This document shows positions 52,791 to 60,272 of a DNA stretch of 64,000 nucleotides, one piece after another (positions within the stretch are counted from its first letter, which is position 1; each line of letters begins with the position of its first letter). This stretch comes from Escherichia phage 241Ecol014PP, in sequence record OR062943.1; one strand, given 5' to 3'. Under the pieces are notes generated by a model. The model did no database searches. It saw only the letters and a list, made by a program, of their open reading frames with translations, and was not told where the DNA came from. Position numbers and translations under genes: made by a program.

Positions 52791-53113
52791 CAGAGATCAT
52801 CATTTCAACTGCAGGGTATGTATTCCTGACAATCCTTGCGCTGACTATTTTGGTGGTGGTATATGGGATTGTTATTCTCCCTATTCTTGAGACAATTAGT
52901 TTGTGTCGGTGTTGGAGAAAGGCTTACGGTCCACAGCCGTGGAAGGACTGGCCCCACCTGGTGCACATAGCGTTCTCTTATGCCTACGATCACTCTAGCA
53001 GTGCATGCATAACCGGATACCACGCCCACAATTGGAGATGGGAAGGGTTGAGGAAGTGGAATGTTACAAAGACTATACCTCTGCGCATGTACAAAGGAAA
53101 AAGGAGGGATTGA
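52787..53113 (+). CDS. membrane protein
   Basis: 108 aa; long N-terminal hydrophobic segment YVFLTILALTILVVVYGIVILPIL. Confidence 0.4.
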   Translation: MTEIIISTAGYVFLTILALTILVVVYGIVILPILETISLCRCWRKAYGPQPWKDWPHLVHIAFSYAYDHSSSACITGYHAHNWRWEGLRKWNVTKTIPLRMYKGKRRD

Positions 53114-53757
53114 TGGGAATACCTGTTAAAGACAGAAAAATATGTGGTCGTGGAGTAAACGATTTAAAAGACAAAGTCCCAATGTACCAATCTGTTAATG
53201 GTAAGAGAGTACCAGAACCTCACTATGCTACATGGAAAGCATTATTCCAGAGGTGCTACGGCGATAACTCAAAGTACCATACAGGTTGTGAAGTTGTAGA
53301 AGATTGGTGGTTGTTCTCAGAATTCTGGAAATGGATGGATACACAAGAGTGGAAAAGAAACGCTAAGAAGTTCACTCTTGACAAAGATCTGAAAATCCCC
53401 GGAAACAGAATATACTCCCCAGAAACATGTATGTTTGCTCCACCACAAATAAACACCTTATTTGGCATAAGACAGGCAGCACGAGGGGATTTACCTTTGG
53501 GTGTGACACTTAGAAAAGATGTAAACAAGTACCTCGTGCATTGTCATCAAGATGGAAAAATTGTTCATGGTGGTCATTTCGCTGATCCGCAGATAGCACA
53601 CAAGGTGTGGCAAGAAATGAAACTTGAGGAGATGAAGCTTCAAGCTATTAAAAACAAAGATGAGATTTGGCTGTTCGCCATTAAACGTGCAATAACTATC
53701 CTTGAGAATGATTTGAAAAATAATAAGGAGACTATAACATTGGTGAAATTTATTTAA
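53113..53757 (+). CDS. HNH_3-type endonuclease
   Basis: ATG 53113 after AAGGAGGG; Trp-rich region then TLDKDLKIPGNRIYSPETCMFAPPQIN core; track ORF begins at 53005. Confidence 0.5.
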   Translation: MGIPVKDRKICGRGVNDLKDKVPMYQSVNGKRVPEPHYATWKALFQRCYGDNSKYHTGCEVVEDWWLFSEFWKWMDTQEWKRNAKKFTLDKDLKIPGNRIYSPETCMFAPPQINTLFGIRQAARGDLPLGVTLRKDVNKYLVHCHQDGKIVHGGHFADPQIAHKVWQEMKLEEMKLQAIKNKDEIWLFAIKRAITILENDLKNNKETITLVKFI

Positions 53758-54085
53758 GATATTTATGGTAGTATTTATTTTAAAATTATAAAAATTTTAG
53801 GTGATGAGGGAAAATATGTAATGGATTTTCCCTTATTTATCAGATATTTGCAGATATTTGGAAATCCTTAGAAAATCAGAAAATGGATCGAAAACTAAAA
53901 TGGATTTTTCAGGGTAGACACGATGAGCTGAACCACTCATCCTATCGTTTGCGGCATATTCCGGACTACCATTCCAGATTTTCCGCGTATGCTCACATCC
54001 TCCTACTAGAACTTCCCCCACTTATCCTTGACCTTTTATGGTAATAATATAACCACTATCTTGAAGTTGCGGTGCAGCTTTCCAG

Positions 54086-54173
54086 GTACTCGATCTGTTT
54101 TTCGTTTCAAAGATTGAATTTTCTGAAAATTTTTCTCGATAAATTTCTTAGTACTCGATCTGTTTTTCGTTTT
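54086..54173. repeat. 22-bp direct repeat pair (GTACTCGATCTGTTTTTCGTTT) within ORF-free region
   Basis: copies at 54086-54107 and 54151-54173; surrounded by further short repeats (AAATGGAT x3, CAGATATTTG x2). Confidence 0.6.
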
Positions 54174-54377
54174 CTGAATCAGATTTTCTGGAAATCGTTC
54201 CGGCGCTCGACCTAAAATTTTTGGGGGCGAAATCGATTTTTCGTTTTCAGAAATGGATTTTTAAAATTTATATATGGGGATATTTTATGGGATATTGTTT
54301 TATAGGAAATTGTTACGGAGGATAATTAGCATGCTAATTAAATTTATTAAATGTGAGGAGTTCTCATTTAGAATTTT

Positions 54378-54392
54378 GAATGATAATCATTC
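54378..54392. promoter_or_regulatory. 15-bp palindrome GAATGATAATCATTC (operator-like)
   Basis: near-perfect dyad symmetry directly upstream of first GC-rich element copy. Confidence 0.35.
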
Positions 54393-54409
54393 TCGTTTGC
54401 AGAATAACG

Positions 54410-54432
54410 GGCAGGCCCGGTGATTGTCTCCC
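54410..54432. repeat. GC-rich element, copy 1 (direct)
   Basis: GGCAGGCCCGGTGATTGTCTCCC; 22/23 match to reverse complement of 62071-62093. Confidence 0.6.
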
Positions 54433-54548
54433 GGCCCCTGTTGCCCCGGCTTGTTATTATAGTATCACACAGGACAAAGAAGGCAAGGATTTTTTGCATA
54501 AATTTTTAAATGATAATGATAACCGTTCTCATTTTATGCAGCGCCCAT

Positions 54549-54586
54549 CTCCGGTGGTTGTCTCCCCCGTCACCGGTGCCTGCCGT
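54549..54586. repeat. GC-rich element, copy 2 (direct, longer)
   Basis: CTCCGGTGGTTGTCTCCCCCGTCACCGGTGCCTGCC; matches reverse complement of 62051-62093 with few mismatches. Confidence 0.6.
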
Positions 54587-54755
54587 CCTTTCGATAGGTA
54601 TATTGTGCCACCTGGCGGGGCCGCTGTCAACACTTTTCAAAAAATTTTTCTAACCTGGTGCGCTAACCGTTGCAACCTGGCGGGGCCAGCCTGGCAGGGG
54701 GGTGAAAGCTTGCAAACCTGGTAGTAGGGTAAACAATTGAAGAGGAGGTACAAAA

Positions 54756-54914
54756 ATGAAAGGTAATGCTACTCACCTGGAAAATGTAGCGATTAATGAC
54801 GCTGAGGCTATCGCCCTGGTTGAAAAGGCTATGGCGGGAGCGTTGGAACATAAAGAAGAGTACGAAAAAATGGTGGTTAACCTGGAGGGGGGCGGCAGGT
54901 GGATTCTATCATAA
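54756..54914 (+). CDS. small hypothetical protein (52 aa)
   Basis: ATG 7 nt after GAGGAGG; below track cutoff. Confidence 0.4.
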   Translation: MKGNATHLENVAINDAEAIALVEKAMAGALEHKEEYEKMVVNLEGGGRWILS

Positions 54915-54933
54915 AAATAATTTAAAATAGTCG

Positions 54934-54961
54934 TTGACAACAAGGTTAATCATGGTATTAT
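54934..54961 (+). promoter_or_regulatory. sigma70-like promoter
   Basis: TTGACA, 16-nt spacer, TATTAT. Confidence 0.5.
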
Positions 54962-55011
54962 TACCCTACAAGGTGAACAACACCGCACTAACCAGTAAAG
55001 AGGATAAATTT

Positions 55012-55209
55012 ATGAACGCATACGGGATCAAAGTACGTCGCAACACTCGCCAGGTGGTCACCAATCAAGTGATTTGCCGGGTGGATGTAACCATCAACAA
55101 CGGGCAAGGCCTTTATAAATTTCGTCGCGGTCATAGCTATACTCTGCAACAGCTTAATCGTTGCGCCCTGACAAAAGGTCAGATCAACCACTGGTTTAAT
55201 AAAAAATAA
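55012..55209 (+). CDS. hypothetical basic protein
   Basis: ATG 55012 after AAAGAGGA; track ORF begins inside the promoter at 54934. Confidence 0.4.
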   Translation: MNAYGIKVRRNTRQVVTNQVICRVDVTINNGQGLYKFRRGHSYTLQQLNRCALTKGQINHWFNKK

Positions 55210-55212
55210 ATA

Positions 55213-55241
55213 TTGACATGTAGTCTGAAACAAAATATACT
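55213..55241 (+). promoter_or_regulatory. sigma70-like promoter
   Basis: TTGACA, 17-nt spacer, TATACT. Confidence 0.6.
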
Positions 55242-55273
55242 GAAAGCACAAAAGACACTAAGAGGATAAAATC

Positions 55274-55672
55274 ATGAAAACCACAACCTTTAATTTTGAC
55301 AATGCTGACTTCTCTTTTTCTGATGTTAAAAGCTGCCGCCGTGATCGCGGATTCTACAAGGCCTATAATCTGGTTGGCCTGGACGATGATAATAATTTGC
55401 ACGAAGTAGCGGAGATCCGGTACTATGCCGCCGCCAGCGGTAACACTCACTACTGTGTATTTTGGATTCACGACAACAAGAACAATAAGTACGGTTATAC
55501 TGGCGGCAAGGCGAGCGGTCACGGTTATGATAAAGCCAACGCTGCACTTGAAAGCGCATTAAGTGCCATGGGAATCACTGCCGACGGCTGGATCTATGAA
55601 GAAGAGTTTTTGGCGGCACTTGCTAACCACCTAGGCTATAAAAAGCACATTGTAACATGCGCCCACGAATAA
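55274..55672 (+). CDS. hypothetical protein
   Basis: 132-aa ORF, AAGAGGA RBS; CTG/GGC/CGC-rich codon choice. Confidence 0.45.
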   Translation: MKTTTFNFDNADFSFSDVKSCRRDRGFYKAYNLVGLDDDNNLHEVAEIRYYAAASGNTHYCVFWIHDNKNNKYGYTGGKASGHGYDKANAALESALSAMGITADGWIYEEEFLAALANHLGYKKHIVTCAHE

Positions 55673-55682
55673 AAAAAAATTA

Positions 55683-55710
55683 TTGACACGCTGCAAAATT
55701 AAAGTAAACT
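55683..55710 (+). promoter_or_regulatory. sigma70-like promoter
   Basis: TTGACA, 16-nt spacer, TAAACT. Confidence 0.55.
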
Positions 55711-55720
55711 AGACACAAAA

Positions 55721-55739
55721 GGCGGGAATGTTTCCCGCC
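55721..55739 (+). promoter_or_regulatory. conserved 5' leader hairpin GGCGGGAA-TGT-TTCCCGCC
   Basis: perfect 8-bp stem downstream of promoter, upstream of RBS; near-identical hairpin at 57922. Confidence 0.5.
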
Positions 55740-55758
55740 AGCACAAAGGAAAAAGATC

Positions 55759-56163
55759 ATGAATAAGAACGTACGCCGCATCATGAACGAACTGGCAAAC
55801 GATGAAAAAATTATTGATATGCATTTGGTCAACATTTGCCGCCGTTGTGTAACATACAACAACCGAGCCGCAAAAGCGCGTGAGATGAACGCAAAAGGCA
55901 CCTTAAAGCCATTCCAGGTGGTGGTAAAGGCCATTAAAGATGTAACTAATACGGCAAACCAGGTACAGGGGAACACCAACGAGAGTACCAATATTGATCC
56001 GGCTTACATCATGAAACGGATCCGGACCTGCAAGAACAAAGAGCAAGTGTATAATGTTATAGACTGGTTGGATTCTATGGGCGATGTGGTTTACAATAGG
56101 TTTTCTGCAGCTATTGAGATCCAGCTTGACAGGTTGGACGGTAAAGTACTGAAAACTTACTGA
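55759..56163 (+). CDS. hypothetical protein
   Basis: 134-aa ORF. Confidence 0.45.
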   Translation: MNKNVRRIMNELANDEKIIDMHLVNICRRCVTYNNRAAKAREMNAKGTLKPFQVVVKAIKDVTNTANQVQGNTNESTNIDPAYIMKRIRTCKNKEQVYNVIDWLDSMGDVVYNRFSAAIEIQLDRLDGKVLKTY

Positions 56164-56164
56164 G

Positions 56165-56205
56165 TTTATTTTTAGATGGCCTTGACACCAGGGCCATCAA
56201 TAAAG
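56165..56205 (+). repeat. 41-bp promoter/palindrome cassette, copy 1
   Basis: TTTATTTTTAGATGGCCTTGACACCAGGGCCATCAATAAAG; dyad GATGGCC..GGCCATC surrounds TTGACA. Confidence 0.65.
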
Positions 56206-56243
56206 TAAACTAATCTCAACTAAGCGAAAAAGGGGGCTTTAAG

Positions 56244-56363
56244 ATGAGCGCTACACGCCAATACACAAAGGTAACTATTATCGTTTGCGTTGTCGGTTAC
56301 ATCCTGGCGCAAATGTTAATGAGTAGCGCTAACAGTTTTGCAAAATTTTTCTTAAATTTTTAA
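56244..56363 (+). CDS. small hydrophobic peptide (39 aa)
   Basis: ATG after AAAGGGGG; single transmembrane-like segment; below track cutoff. Confidence 0.3.
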   Translation: MSATRQYTKVTIIVCVVGYILAQMLMSSANSFAKFFLNF

Positions 56364-56391
56364 TTGACAAACTAACTTAGATCAATATACT
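56364..56391 (+). promoter_or_regulatory. sigma70-like promoter
   Basis: TTGACA, 16-nt spacer, TATACT; followed by leader hairpin GGGAAAACTTCCC at 56405. Confidence 0.55.
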
Positions 56392-56442
56392 TAAACACGT
56401 AAACGGGAAAACTTCCCAGAGCACACAAAAGGAGAAAACACC

Positions 56443-56784
56443 ATGACTACTATGACCGCCGAAGAAAAAGCCCTGCAGATCGCCGCTCTGAAAAAACAGA
56501 TTGCAGAACTTGAAGACAAGATCGACAATTTTGAAATCGACGAAGACAAACACGACGATAAATATGATGAATGGTTAGACGAGATCTACGGCGAAATCAT
56601 GATCGGAAACATTTCTTTTCTTCCGTCGCGTATCCTCAAGGAGCTAGATCCTATCGCTTACCGCTGCGGATTTAGCGACTACATCGACAGCCTGGATATT
56701 GAGGACGATGAAGAATACCAAGAATTACAGACAGAGCTTGAAGAAGTGAAAGAAGAGCTTGCAGAACTGGAAGAAAACGAGTAA
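56443..56784 (+). CDS. highly acidic protein (candidate DNA mimic)
   Basis: 113 aa with roughly one third Asp/Glu and few basic residues; AAAGGAGAA RBS. Confidence 0.45.
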   Translation: MTTMTAEEKALQIAALKKQIAELEDKIDNFEIDEDKHDDKYDEWLDEIYGEIMIGNISFLPSRILKELDPIAYRCGFSDYIDSLDIEDDEEYQELQTELEEVKEELAELEENE

Positions 56785-56826
56785 ATTTATTTTTAGATGG
56801 CCTTGACACCAGGGCCATCAATAAAG
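56785..56826 (+). repeat. promoter/palindrome cassette, copy 2
   Basis: ATTTATTTTTAGATGGCCTTGACACCAGGGCCATCAATAAAG. Confidence 0.65.
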
Positions 56827-56859
56827 ATAATTTATTAACACCATGAAAGGAGAAAGTAC

Positions 56860-57213
56860 ATGATCAGCGGGGCTAGTTTTATTATTGGCGCTATTGCTAC
56901 GGCTTTAATTGTAAACAAGATCCAATCTAAAAACGAAAAAGATAGCAACGCGCTCACAGAATACCCATTTTGGGTATTCAACGACAACGAAGACTACATA
57001 ATCAAGTACAAGAATGAGAAGGGCGACCAGGTAACACCGCGACCGATCCCGGCTTACAAAATGCAAGAAACACTATACCGCCTAAAGGCTGGAGGCGCAA
57101 AAATCGTAGACTTTTGGGGATATGATTGCAAGGATCAGGAGGTTATAAAACGGCGTATCCGGGCGATTCAGGCAAATATTGAGATCAGTAAGGGGGGAAG
57201 TTATGAAAATTAA
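56860..57213 (+). CDS. membrane-anchored protein
   Basis: 117 aa; N-terminal hydrophobic helix ISGASFIIGAIATALIV. Confidence 0.45.
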   Translation: MISGASFIIGAIATALIVNKIQSKNEKDSNALTEYPFWVFNDNEDYIIKYKNEKGDQVTPRPIPAYKMQETLYRLKAGGAKIVDFWGYDCKDQEVIKRRIRAIQANIEISKGGSYEN

Positions 57214-57633: not shown

Positions 57634-57894
57634 ATGCGTAAATTAAAAAATTTTGATAAAGTCGATGTTGTCCTGAATAATTTTTACTACTGCAACAACA
57701 AGGCCATTTGGTGGCGTGATAGTTCCACCGATAAAGTCAAGGCGCGCTTTCTCCAGGGGCACTGGCAAGGCCGCCCAGTGATTAAAATCATGGGGCAATT
57801 GGTAGCGTTTAAAAATTGCCGCCGTGTTGATGACGTTGAAGAGATTCTAAACATTTTACGCCACAATAATTTAAAAAATAGTGTTGACAAGTAA
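57634..57894 (+). CDS. hypothetical protein
   Basis: 86-aa ORF with AGGAAGGAG RBS. Confidence 0.45.
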   Translation: MRKLKNFDKVDVVLNNFYYCNNKAIWWRDSSTDKVKARFLQGHWQGRPVIKIMGQLVAFKNCRRVDDVEEILNILRHNNLKNSVDK

Positions 57895-57911
57895 GCCTCA
57901 ATAAGTATACT
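57884..57911 (+). promoter_or_regulatory. sigma70-like promoter
   Basis: TTGACA overlapping stop codon, 16-nt spacer, TATACT. Confidence 0.55.
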
Positions 57912-57921
57912 TAAACACGCA

Positions 57922-57940
57922 GGCGGGAAAACTTCCCGCC
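57922..57940 (+). promoter_or_regulatory. conserved 5' leader hairpin GGCGGGAA-AAC-TTCCCGCC
   Basis: same stem as 55721-55739, located between promoter and RBS. Confidence 0.5.
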
Positions 57941-57968: not shown

Positions 57969-58592
57969 ATGACCACCGTTAACATTACTACAGGTTACAA
58001 TTTATCTTTCGACGTGCTGACCGACGAACAAAAAGAAAAAGCCGTTGAAATGGTCCGCGAAAGAGAAGAACACAGCGGGGATAACTTTTTTGCAGAAAGT
58101 GTAATTGAAGACTATAAAGAATATGTCTTTCCAGAGTATGGCCTTGAAGATACCAAGGTACATTGGTCCGGCTTTTGGTGCCAGGGTGACGGCGCGTCAA
58201 TCAGTGCGGAAAACGTGGATTTAGAAAAATTCTTGCGTAAAGTAAAGGCCCTGACCAAGTTCCGATCAATTCGTCACTTGTTCGGCACAATGCACGATGG
58301 CGAGCTATCCGCAAGTGTTGAGCGTGATCCATATAGCCGCTATAGTCACGAAAACACTGTAAGCGGGTACATCGATACTACATGGCTAGACCTGACCGCC
58401 AAACAAGAAAATAAAGTGGAAGATCTGGAAGAGCTGATCACCGAGACGGTACGGGAGCTATCCCGCAAGGTTTACGTAGACCTGGAGGGGGCCTATCTTG
58501 AACAATTCACTACCGAAAACCTGATCGGCCTTATCAAGGCCAATGATTGGCGGTTTGATGTGGATGAAGATGGCGAGATGACTTTTTCATAA
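57969..58592 (+). CDS. hypothetical protein
   Basis: 207-aa ORF, acidic. Confidence 0.45.
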   Translation: MTTVNITTGYNLSFDVLTDEQKEKAVEMVREREEHSGDNFFAESVIEDYKEYVFPEYGLEDTKVHWSGFWCQGDGASISAENVDLEKFLRKVKALTKFRSIRHLFGTMHDGELSASVERDPYSRYSHENTVSGYIDTTWLDLTAKQENKVEDLEELITETVRELSRKVYVDLEGAYLEQFTTENLIGLIKANDWRFDVDEDGEMTFS

Positions 58593-59980: not shown

Positions 59981-60181
59981 ATGAGCAACAATATCCGCGT
60001 TATTAACTTCAAAAAAGAAGAAAAAATTGCCGTGCTGATTGACGGTCAAGAAATCTTCAAGGGCGATTATGAAGATCATCAAACGGCGATTAGTATCACT
60101 CGCGTGATCGGTTACCATAATTTCTACCCCCAAGGCGCTGAGGCAGCAGTTAAACGAATCAAAGAGATTGTAGGCCTGTAA
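59981..60181 (+). CDS. hypothetical protein
   Basis: 66-aa ORF, AAAGGAGAA RBS. Confidence 0.4.
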   Translation: MSNNIRVINFKKEEKIAVLIDGQEIFKGDYEDHQTAISITRVIGYHNFYPQGAEAAVKRIKEIVGL

Positions 60182-60182
60182 A

Positions 60183-60224
60183 ATTTATTTTTAGATGGCC
60201 TTGACCCCAGGGCCATCAATAAAG
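60183..60224 (+). repeat. promoter/palindrome cassette, copy 3 (TTGACC variant)
   Basis: ATTTATTTTTAGATGGCCTTGACCCCAGGGCCATCAATAAAG. Confidence 0.65.
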
Positions 60225-60272
60225 TAAATTTAAACCCTGTTAAAATAATCAGTACAAAAAGGAGTAATGATC

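What the first reader, a model, noticed from the sequence alone, without database searches (positions are those of the whole stretch)
56443..56784. Strongly acidic 113-aa early protein: candidate DNA mimic
Roughly one third of residues are Asp/Glu with few basic residues, in coiled-coil-like register (ELEDKIDNFEIDEDKHDDKYDEW..DDEEYQELQTELEEVKEELAELEENE). It has its own promoter and leader hairpin. This composition resembles Ocr/ArdA-type DNA mimics that block restriction or other DNA-binding defence proteins.
Basis: inference. Interest (0 to 1): 0.5.

Follow-up and report, generated by a model that had tools for sequence, protein, structure and literature searches.

The report
Acidic phage accessory protein, unannotated domain
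This is a real, very acidic small gene of an rV5-like E. coli phage, built around a widespread but undescribed 48-residue domain; the phage needs it only on certain host strains, so it is probably a counter-defence protein, but nothing yet shows that it imitates DNA.

Summary
ORF 56443..56784 (+) encodes a 113-aa protein with 37 Asp/Glu, net charge -27 and pI 4.05. It is the most acidic ORF in the window, is under purifying selection, and has a conserved near-consensus sigma-70 promoter, leader stem-loop and Shine-Dalgarno site. It is the ortholog of rV5 gp187 and Bas54 bas54_0108.

A transposon-sequencing preprint reports bas54_0108 as dispensable on E. coli K-12 and undepleted on isolate CFE311. 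It was clearly depleted on isolate CFE303, except for insertions in the 3' end, which encodes the C-terminal acidic helix. Published plating data show vequintaviruses nearly immune to type I restriction despite 9-15 EcoKI sites.

Best reading: a strain-specific counter-defence protein acting through its acidic core, target unknown, with type I restriction as the first candidate to test. DNA mimicry is untested.

The parts
56364..56391 (+). Sigma-70-type promoter, TTGACA (56364-56369), 16-nt spacer, TATACT (56386-56391); equals rV5 P192
   Evidence: 11/12 consensus match. Conserved in rV5, Bas54 and Bas59, where rV5 and Bas54 read TATAAT. Annotated as a promoter in NC_011041. Activity not measured.
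56405..56417 (+). Leader stem-loop GGGAA-AAC-TTCCC, about 8 nt after the expected transcription start
   Evidence: Invariant in four phages. The same promoter+hairpin cassette recurs at 57884-57937 (D4). Weak fold: -5.9 kcal/mol, z -1.3. No covariation is available to test it.
56429..56434 (+). Shine-Dalgarno AAGGAG, 8 nt before the ATG
   Evidence: Read directly from the sequence; conserved.
56443..56784 (+). CDS, 113 aa plus stop; ortholog of rV5 gp187 (ORF192), bas59_0104 and bas54_0108; PHROG 9294
   Evidence: dN/dS 0.10-0.15.
56458..56526 (+). N-terminal heptad helix (residues 6-28), one of the two lineage-specific arms
56542..56691 (+). Conserved core domain (residues 34-83): helix alpha1 with an acidic stripe, beta-hairpin, and two helices carrying S-R-x-L-K-E-L-D-P-I-A-Y-R-C-G-F-S-D-Y
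56710..56775 (+). C-terminal acidic heptad helix (residues 90-111), the second arm
   Evidence: AlphaFold2 helix. Replaced by Cys-rich, zinc-ribbon-like tails or missing in other members. In Bas54, the TA sites in the last 20% of the gene fall at residues 95, 98 and 102 of the 116-aa ortholog. The preprint reports high insertion counts in this 3' end on CFE303, so it appears dispensable there.
56162..56213 (+). Upstream PeSL-like cassette: strong stem-loop with TTGACA in the stem, followed by a -10-like TAAACT
   Evidence: Three copies in the window (D1). Fold -19.6 kcal/mol, z -5.8. Promoter-like match TTGACA-18-TAAACT.
56244..56363 (+). Small 39-aa hydrophobic ORF (rV5 gp188 ortholog) inside the same cassette-bounded unit
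   Evidence: No Pfam hit. Coding status not tested.
56783..56834 (+). Downstream PeSL-like cassette, starting at the last two bases of the stop codon; carries TTGACA-17-GATAAT for the next gene
   Evidence: Fold -21.6 kcal/mol, z -6.7. It is a hybrid of the two copies that flank gp186 in rV5, a gene the window lacks.

Best explanation
An accessory gene, probably expressed early, whose product neutralises a host factor present only in some E. coli strains. That factor is most likely an immune system that handles nucleic acid.

The working part is the roughly 48-residue core (residues 34-83). It is a rigid mini-domain whose first helix presents a conserved stripe of paired carboxylates. I propose this surface occupies the basic nucleic-acid-binding groove of the target, as a decoy or competitive inhibitor. 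The two heptad helices special to the rV5 lineage probably pack into an antiparallel stalk. They would add charge, solubility or oligomerisation but are not needed for activity.

Shown: the gene, its composition, its regulatory signals, the family and its conservation, the predicted fold, and (from a preprint) conditional requirement on one clinical isolate with tolerance of 3'-end insertions.

Inferred: early timing, an anti-defence role rather than another host-specific role, decoy binding through the acidic stripe, and the identity of the target. Type I restriction-modification is the first candidate.
For: (1) bas54_0108 is the ortholog, 98.8% identical by tblastn (H27), with locus tag. HIDEN-SEQ calls it non-essential on K-12 (18/19 TA sites). 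On CFE311 its log2FC is -0.52, p 0.58. [quoted passage not shown]

(2) Conservation sits in the core, not the tails. The family is large and overwhelmingly viral: 3,772 clusters, and 172 phage records spanning hosts from Escherichia and Pseudomonas to Microbacterium. It gave one plasmid record (137,565 bp, Vequintavirus-sized, probably a mis-filed phage) and one bacterial genome locus.

(3) Acidity is selected across the family. All 146 top representatives are net-negative, with median 27% Asp/Glu. Six alpha1 positions in an i, i+1, i+4, i+5, i+8, i+9 pattern are 68-94% Asp/Glu.

(4) Family members sit in early, small-gene regions. In Providencia and Proteus Autographiviridae they lie upstream of primase, among host-promoter-driven genes.

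(5) The locus is cassette-like and variable. Its neighbour bas54_0106 is conditionally required on another isolate. Both features are typical of counter-defence islands.

(6) Vequintaviruses with 9-15 EcoKI sites plate at EOP 0.06-0.83 on EcoKI and about 0.2-1 or more on EcoCFT_I, yet at 1e-4 to 1e-3 on EcoRI and not at all on EcoCFT_II. A phage with 3 EcoKI sites drops to about 1e-4. An unidentified anti-type-I function therefore exists in this phage group.
Against: No binding partner, defence system or biochemical activity has been tied to this protein or to any family member.

The CFE303 result is a single sentence in the Methods of a preprint. The supplementary sheet labelled CFE303 actually holds the CFE311 run, so no numbers could be checked. 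The authors report no matching defence system for it.

Conditional requirement could reflect a non-immune host difference.

Most conserved core residues look structural (hydrophobic core, helix caps), so conservation alone does not mark a binding site.

Fold searches are silent, which neither supports nor excludes mimicry.

The family is absent from plasmids, where general anti-restriction proteins are common.

Wild-type Bas54 is still sensitive to Druantia III-A and Mokosh, so those are not countered.
Confidence: 0.4

Rival explanations
1. The first reader's specific version, nested within the best explanation: a DNA mimic that blocks type I restriction-modification (and perhaps BREX) by occupying the DNA-binding groove of the methylase/specificity core, functionally like Ocr or ArdA but with an unrelated fold.
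For: Net -27 on 113 aa is close to my recollection of Ocr's charge density. Bas53-Bas59 are almost unrestricted by two type I systems despite 9-15 EcoKI and 4-5 EcoCFT_I sites, while type II and III systems restrict them strongly. In the same study Ocr-encoding T7-like phages show a comparable pattern, with type I ineffective and type III potent. From my own knowledge, the K-12 reference host BW25113 carries hsdR514, so an anti-type-I gene would be dispensable there, as observed. Type I systems are near-universal, which fits the family's breadth. Acidic pairs one helical turn apart (about 6 A) are close to the phosphate spacing of B-DNA; this is inference and not measured.
Against: No sequence or fold relation to Ocr or ArdA. 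The C-terminal acidic helix is dispensable. A 48-aa core is much shorter than the DNA footprint of a type I enzyme unless it oligomerises. The family is absent from plasmids. Vequintaviruses encode two N6-adenine methyltransferases and a Dcm-like enzyme that could explain the phenotype instead. Nothing links the phenotype to this gene.
Confidence: 0.18
2. A counter-defence protein that works without nucleic-acid mimicry. It would bind a sensor or effector of a strain-specific system (an abortive-infection, toxin-antitoxin or signalling system) through a conventional protein-protein interface, with the acidity incidental or serving solubility.
For: The genetic evidence is the same as for the best explanation. 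Other anti-defence genes found in the same screen (nrdC.1, bas37_0203, bas54_0140) are small ORFans with no known domains. No DNA mimic appears among the fold matches.
Against: It does not explain why every family member, across unrelated architectures and host phyla, keeps a strong net negative charge and the alpha1 acidic stripe. A strain-specific sensor is also an unlikely target for a domain shared by phages of Proteobacteria and Actinobacteria.
Confidence: 0.17
3. Not an immune antagonist. It would be a host-adaptation factor that modulates a variable, non-immune host component (nucleoid proteins such as H-NS/StpA/HU, RecBCD, a protease or a metabolic function), with strain dependence reflecting host physiology.
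For: Conditional essentiality by itself does not identify immunity; the preprint's authors make this caveat themselves. From my own knowledge, acidic phage proteins also target H-NS, HU, RecBCD and MukBEF. The broad host range of the family favours a universal housekeeping target.
Against: A universal housekeeping target should matter on K-12 as well, yet the gene is fully dispensable there and on CFE311.
Confidence: 0.15
4. A structural or assembly helper, for example a prefoldin-like coiled-coil chaperone, scaffolding accessory or replication accessory. In this reading the acidity serves protein-protein contacts within the phage's own machinery.
For: The layout (helix, small beta-hairpin-containing domain, helix) superficially recalls prefoldin subunits, but only a sub-threshold Pfam Prefoldin_2 match supports this (E 0.65). 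Some relatives carry the domain in tandem inside long proteins with repeated AETFGA-type linkers and a C-terminal membrane anchor.
Against: It is non-essential on K-12, with insertions at 18/19 sites. It sits among small accessory genes, not in morphogenesis or replication modules. The arms that create the prefoldin-like look are not conserved in the family.
Confidence: 0.05

Closest known systems
T7 Ocr (gp0.3), Pfam PF08684
   Same: A small, early, host-promoter-driven phage protein with extreme negative charge, dispensable on restriction-deficient laboratory hosts. Its phage group shows immunity to type I R-M.
   Different: No sequence similarity and no fold match. From my own knowledge, Ocr is an all-helical elongated dimer, whereas this protein has a helix/beta-hairpin/helix/helix core with two optional arms. 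No activity against type I R-M or BREX has been demonstrated.
ArdA anti-restriction proteins, Pfam PF07275
   Same: An acidic protein of a mobile element that could act on widely conserved DNA-handling enzymes. The family has a very broad taxonomic spread.
   Different: No Pfam hit. It is much smaller than my recollection of the three-domain ArdA monomer. ArdA is typical of plasmids and conjugative elements, whereas this family is essentially absent from 72,556 plasmid records.
Other small acidic phage DNA mimics with unrelated folds (T7 gp5.9, lambda Gam, T4 Arn, Ugi/p56, AcrIIA4/AcrF2)
   Same: From my own knowledge, each has its own fold and the class is defined by function and charge pattern rather than homology. 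A new fold with an acidic helical stripe would therefore fit the class.
   Different: All of those have an identified DNA-binding target and a structure showing phosphate-like carboxylate spacing. Neither exists here.
ORFan anti-defence genes found by phage transposon sequencing (T4 nrdC.1 vs Septu, bas37_0203 vs Druantia III, bas54_0140 and bas54_0063 vs DS-28); bioRxiv 10.1101/2025.11.20.689424
   Same: The evidence type and gene class are the same: small, unannotated, non-essential on K-12 and depleted on a particular clinical isolate. bas54_0108, the ortholog, comes from that very screen.
   Different: Those genes were validated with clean knock-outs and paired with a cloned defence system. 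bas54_0108 is mentioned only in the Methods and is not paired with anything.
PeSL (promoter-early stem-loop) cassettes of RB49/phi1, Arbiol et al. 2010 (PMC2839356)
   Same: The gene is bracketed by repeated 52-nt units combining a strong stem-loop and a sigma-70-like promoter. A neighbouring gene (rV5 gp186) is present or absent exactly between two such units (abstract).
   Different: Here the -35 hexamer lies inside the stem, and the stem is not followed by a T-run. Terminator and promoter activity were not tested, and the phage is not T4-type.

Membership tests
Ocr (PF08684) | Sequence matches the Ocr family profile or the solved Ocr chain | tested here: not met
   Neither Ocr nor ArdA appears in the Pfam listing at E<=1, of which the best 25 of 26 families are shown. 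No Ocr chain at E<=10 in the PDB sequence search with the protein or the core profile.
Ocr (PF08684) | All-helical elongated fold forming a DNA-shaped dimer | tested here: not met
Ocr (PF08684) | Inhibits type I R-M and BREX by binding their DNA-binding methylase core | not testable with these tools
   Only indirect evidence: vequintaviruses are nearly unrestricted by EcoKI and EcoCFT_I.
ArdA (PF07275) | Sequence matches the ArdA profile; three-domain monomer | tested here: not met
   No hit. The protein is 113 aa with a single small domain plus two helices.
DNA-mimic proteins (functional class) | High density of surface Asp/Glu and few basic residues | tested here: met
   32.7% Asp/Glu, net -27. 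The trait is conserved across the family.
DNA-mimic proteins (functional class) | Carboxylates placed like the phosphates of a DNA duplex or strand | not testable with these tools
   Model coordinates are not exposed. The only available fact is the i/i+4 periodicity of acidic pairs on helix alpha1, which is suggestive at best.
DNA-mimic proteins (functional class) | Binds a DNA-binding protein and competes with DNA | not testable with these tools
   No partner is known. No complex prediction tool was available.
Phage counter-defence (anti-defence) genes | Dispensable on a permissive host and required on a host carrying the cognate defence | tested here: inconclusive
   Published data for the ortholog show the first half and state the second for CFE303. 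No cognate system has been identified, and the CFE303 table is missing from the supplement.
PHROG 9294 / 9396 / 37123 (unknown function) | Significant match to the family profile | tested here: met
   E 6.3e-52 over the full length to phrog_9294. E 2.7e-10 and 1.5e-9 to phrog_9396 and phrog_37123 over the core.
PeSL-type regulatory cassettes (for the flanking repeats) | Repeated unit joining a sigma-70-like promoter and a stable stem-loop, flanking non-essential genes and marking indel boundaries | tested here: met
   Promoter and terminator activity were not testable.

The most novel reading that the evidence does not exclude
The 48-residue core is a new, very widespread nucleic-acid-mimicking inhibitor module of virulent phages. 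It would be used stand-alone, with coiled-coil arms, fused to zinc ribbons, or in tandem inside large multi-domain proteins. In rV5-like phages it would be the unidentified factor that makes them nearly immune to type I restriction.
Probability: 0.15. Interest if true: 0.75.

Novelty: new member of a known kind. Interest (0 to 1): 0.55.

Why it matters
rV5-like phages are common therapy and biocontrol candidates against pathogenic E. coli, yet most of their small genes have no known function.

This gene has three useful properties. It carries a compact domain found in thousands of phage protein clusters that no curated library describes. One published screen gives it a host-specific phenotype. 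And its phage group has an unexplained immunity to type I restriction.

Pairing the gene with its host target would annotate a large piece of phage dark matter. It could also add a new inhibitor scaffold of only about 50 residues, small enough to be useful as a tool.

Tried and rejected
Searches that found nothing specific:
- Pfam gave only sub-threshold coiled-coil noise (HalX, SlyX, GvpG and similar). This explains the spurious source names 'GvpG', 'SbcC ATPase' and 'Zn-ribbon protein'.
- NCBIfam found nothing.
- PDB sequence searches with the protein and with the core profile found nothing credible.
- BFVD returned only uncharacterised family members.
- The AFDB50 fold library was not available.
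- Rfam found nothing on 53600-57000, and there are no tRNAs in 50-64 kb.

Context searches:
- Plasmids: one record, a 137,565-bp entry of Vequintavirus size, probably a mis-filed phage. P0100 gave none.
- Bacterial genomes: one locus.
- Neighbourhood clustering over 80 viral loci found recurrent small neighbours but no informative partner.
- The long tandem-copy proteins led to a 123-kb viral contig with no PHROG hits at all. P0139 was not found in viral contigs.
- I could not document DUF3849 as a polyvalent-protein marker, so I make no such claim.

Readings I revised or dropped:
- I first took the BASEL text ('lack any effective protection' from R-M) as evidence against an anti-restriction role. 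The raw data show that statement holds for type II and III systems but not type I.
- I considered Druantia III of CFE303 as the target. Wild-type Bas54 is reported sensitive to a Druantia III-A system, and DNA mimics did not inhibit Druantia III in another study. I therefore do not favour it.
- I looked for the CFE303 resampling numbers. The sheets labelled S6 and S7 both contain the CFE311 run, and the per-site count sheets are truncated.

Full report
WHAT THE WINDOW IS. The region is 94-96% identical at the nucleotide level to rV5-like coliphages (Vequintavirus), including rV5 itself, APECc02 and several BASEL phages. An identical 113-aa protein is recorded from Escherichia phage 241Ecol014PP.

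THE OBSERVATION. ORF 56443..56784 (+) exists as described.
- It has 23 Glu and 14 Asp among 113 residues (32.7%), 10 Lys/Arg, net charge -27 and pI 4.05.
- It is by far the most acidic of 180 ATG-started ORFs of at least 50 aa in the window. The next is 23.0%, and the mean for + strand ORFs of at least 80 aa is 13.4% with sd 6.0%.
- It is a real gene. dN/dS against rV5 and Bas59 is 0.10-0.15, and a strong AAGGAG site lies 8 nt upstream of the ATG.
- A TTGACA-16-TATACT promoter at 56364..56391 scores 11/12. It is conserved in four vequintaviruses and is annotated as sigma70 promoter P192 in the rV5 record, where the gene is gp187/ORF192.
- The leader stem-loop GGGAA-AAC-TTCCC (56405..56417) is invariant in the four phages. 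The whole promoter+hairpin unit recurs at 57884..57937 in front of another acidic ORF (D4). On energy alone it is unremarkable: -5.9 kcal/mol, z -1.3.
- 'Early' rests on the promoter type only.

WHAT IS CONSERVED. Seventy-four homologs were found at E<=1e-3. Aligning them shows that the conserved element is a central stretch, not the acidic tails. It reads Y-D-x-x-L-D-E-x-Y-G ... S-R-x-L-K-E-L-D-P-I-A-Y-R-C-G-F-S-D-Y, with Y41, S62, L65, D69, P70, I71, A72, Y73, C75 and D79 nearly invariant.

The flanks vary widely:
- Some relatives are 64-aa core-only proteins. P0059 is listed with 42 contigs and sits in TARA marine contigs that carry portal and terminase genes.
- Some replace the C-terminal helix with Cys-rich, zinc-ribbon-like tails.
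- Some carry two or three tandem cores inside proteins of 200-840 aa.

An exhaustive profile search with the core alone found 3,772 clusters (at 50% identity) at E<=1e-3 and 1,585 at E<=1e-10. Among the best 146, the median length is 108 aa, the median Asp/Glu content is 27%, and none is net-neutral or positive.

Within the core, six positions of the first helix are 68-94% Asp/Glu, arranged i, i+1, i+4, i+5, i+8, i+9. The few conserved basic residues are R63, K66 and R74. Cys75 is replaced by Val or Met in some members, so it looks like a buried position and not a catalytic one.

The family is known only as PHROGs 9294, 9396 and 37123, all of unknown function. It is absent from Pfam and NCBIfam.

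DISTRIBUTION. tblastn finds the family in 172 phage records. They include relatives of vequintaviruses, Vibrio, Aeromonas and Pseudomonas phages (KPP10/PAK_P-type), Stenotrophomonas, and Microbacterium. BFVD adds Clavibacter, Gordonia and Pseudoalteromonas phages.

In Providencia and Proteus Autographiviridae the gene lies in the left-end early region, upstream of primase and helicase.

It is essentially absent from 72,556 plasmid records. The single hit is a 137,565-bp record of Vequintavirus size, probably a mis-filed phage. A strict-motif scan of 185,579 bacterial and archaeal genomes found one locus. Clustering neighbours across 80 viral loci found no informative partner gene.

STRUCTURE. 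AlphaFold2 gives a confident model (pLDDT 92.8, pTM 0.72): helix 6-28, helix 34-49, a short beta-hairpin (52-54, 57-59), helices 61-68 and 70-83, and helix 90-111. The core alone folds the same way (pLDDT 92.7).

EXPERIMENTAL EVIDENCE FROM THE LITERATURE.

(a) HIDEN-SEQ (bioRxiv 10.1101/2025.11.20.689424) mapped gene essentiality in Bas54, which is phage MaxBurger, MZ501093. The ortholog of this ORF is bas54_0108, at 83882..84232, 98.8% identical.
- It is classed non-essential on K-12, with 18 of 19 TA sites hit.
- It is not depleted on isolate CFE311: log2FC -0.52, p 0.58.
- The TA sites in that last 20% fall at residues 95, 98 and 102 of the 116-aa ortholog, inside the C-terminal heptad helix, plus the stop codon. 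A protein lacking most of that helix therefore still works. This agrees with the finding that the core is the conserved unit.
- No defence system was paired with the gene.
- The supplementary sheets labelled CFE303 and CFE311 both contain the CFE311 run, so the CFE303 numbers could not be checked.

(b) BASEL (PMC8594841). [quoted passage not shown] The raw data qualify this:
- Bas54-Bas59 carry 9-15 EcoKI and 4-5 EcoCFT_I sites.
- They plate at EOP 0.06-0.83 on EcoKI and about 0.2-1 or more on EcoCFT_I.
- They plate at 1e-4 to 1e-3 on EcoRI, form almost no plaques on EcoRV, and form none on the type III system EcoCFT_II.
- Bas01, with only 3 EcoKI sites, drops to about 1e-4 on EcoKI.

These phages therefore behave as if they carry a type I-specific protection. 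In the same study, Ocr-encoding T7-like phages are also unaffected by type I systems and strongly restricted by type III. Nothing ties this to the present gene. The phages also encode two N6-adenine methyltransferases and a Dcm-like enzyme.

(c) Wild-type Bas54 remains sensitive to Mokosh and to a Druantia III-A system. A panel of DNA mimics did not inhibit Druantia III. The only cloned CFE303 system, Druantia III, is thus not an attractive target.

INTERPRETATION. The gene is best read as a strain-specific counter-defence gene, or at least a host-adaptation gene, whose active part is the conserved acidic core. I propose that the alpha1 carboxylate stripe engages a basic, nucleic-acid-binding surface of a host protein (confidence 0.4).

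Other readings:
- An anti-defence role without mimicry (0.17) and a non-immune host-factor role (0.15) remain open.
- A structural or assembly role is unlikely, given non-essentiality and genomic position (0.05).

Membership in the Ocr or ArdA families was tested and failed. 'Works like a DNA mimic' is neither shown nor excluded. Each known mimic has its own fold, and the decisive features, charge geometry and competition with DNA, could not be tested here.

LOCUS ARCHITECTURE. The gene and the small hydrophobic ORF 56244..56363 are bracketed by two copies of a 52-nt unit (56162-56213 and 56783-56834; a third lies at 60181-60232). The unit folds into a very stable stem-loop (z -5.8 and -6.7) with a TTGACA inside the stem and a -10-like hexamer downstream.

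In rV5 two such units flank gp186. The window has a single hybrid unit and lacks gp186. This is the behaviour described for promoter-early stem-loop (PeSL) cassettes in RB49/phi1. The neighbourhood therefore looks like a shuffling zone of accessory genes. The upstream neighbour's ortholog bas54_0106 is itself conditionally required on CFE311.

VERDICT. It is a new member of a known kind (small acidic phage accessory or anti-defence proteins), carrying an undescribed and very widespread domain with no fold match to solved structures in these searches. Interest is moderate to good (0.55), because one knock-out and a handful of platings would decide the main question.

Noticed in passing
window 56162-56213, 56783-56834, 60181-60232: Three copies of a 52-nt cassette: a very stable stem-loop with TTGACA in the stem, followed by a -10-like hexamer. 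In rV5 two copies flank gp186, while the window has one hybrid copy and no gp186. This indicates gene gain or loss by recombination between cassettes, as described for PeSLs in RB49/phi1.
   Followed up: partly
window 57884-57937 and ORF 57969..58592: The promoter+leader-hairpin unit of the acidic gene is repeated at 78% identity in front of a second acidic ORF (207 aa, 21% Asp/Glu, net -22; rV5 gp180, PHROG 5162, no Pfam hit). The two acidic genes may therefore be co-regulated.
   Followed up: partly
window 54076-54261: Iteron-like direct repeats, three copies of 47-57 nt at 65-74 nt spacing, lie in an ORF-poor stretch. The orthologous Bas54 segment (bas54_0100/0101) took no transposon insertions at 0 of 11 TA sites. 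This may be an essential cis-acting element rather than the tiny annotated ORFs. No Rfam match from 53600 onward.
   Followed up: partly
window 55759..56163 (+), 134 aa: The upstream neighbour (rV5 gp189, PHROG 13245) is the ortholog of bas54_0106. That gene is strongly depleted on clinical isolate CFE311 (log2FC -3.18, adjusted p 0) and is not discussed in the preprint, so it is another candidate counter-defence gene.
   Followed up: no
literature: BASEL S1 Data (PMC8594841) for Bas53-Bas59: Vequintaviruses with 9-15 EcoKI sites are almost unrestricted by two type I R-M systems but strongly restricted by type II and III systems. This contrasts with the paper's summary that they lack protection from R-M, and the responsible phage function is unknown.
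   Followed up: partly
literature: Extended Data Table 8 of bioRxiv 10.1101/2025.11.20.689424: The sheet titled 'resampling_K-12_vs_CFE303' was generated from the CFE311 file (the console line names B54_2_311), and every row checked matches the next sheet. The CFE303 results therefore appear to be missing from the deposited table.
   Followed up: yes
proteins P0075-P0078, P0080, P0082, P0085; locus L011: Long metagenomic proteins carry two or three tandem copies of the core. They are separated from other segments by recurring AETFGA/AESF-type motifs and end in an EF-hand-like motif and a membrane anchor. The motifs look like protease processing sites of a polyprotein. The one viral contig recovered (123 kb) has no PHROG hits.
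   Followed up: partly
proteins P0100, P0139, P0143, P0160: The core also occurs inside 280-820-aa multi-domain proteins with Thr/Asn-rich linkers, a DUF3849 or DUF6894 match and further unannotated domains. Their origin was not found in the plasmid or viral collections searched.
   Followed up: partly
window 53005..53757 (+), 250 aa: This large ORF has no counterpart of that size in the rV5 annotation, which has only small ORFs at the corresponding place (gp195/gp194). It has no Pfam hit and could be an inserted mobile gene.
   Followed up: no
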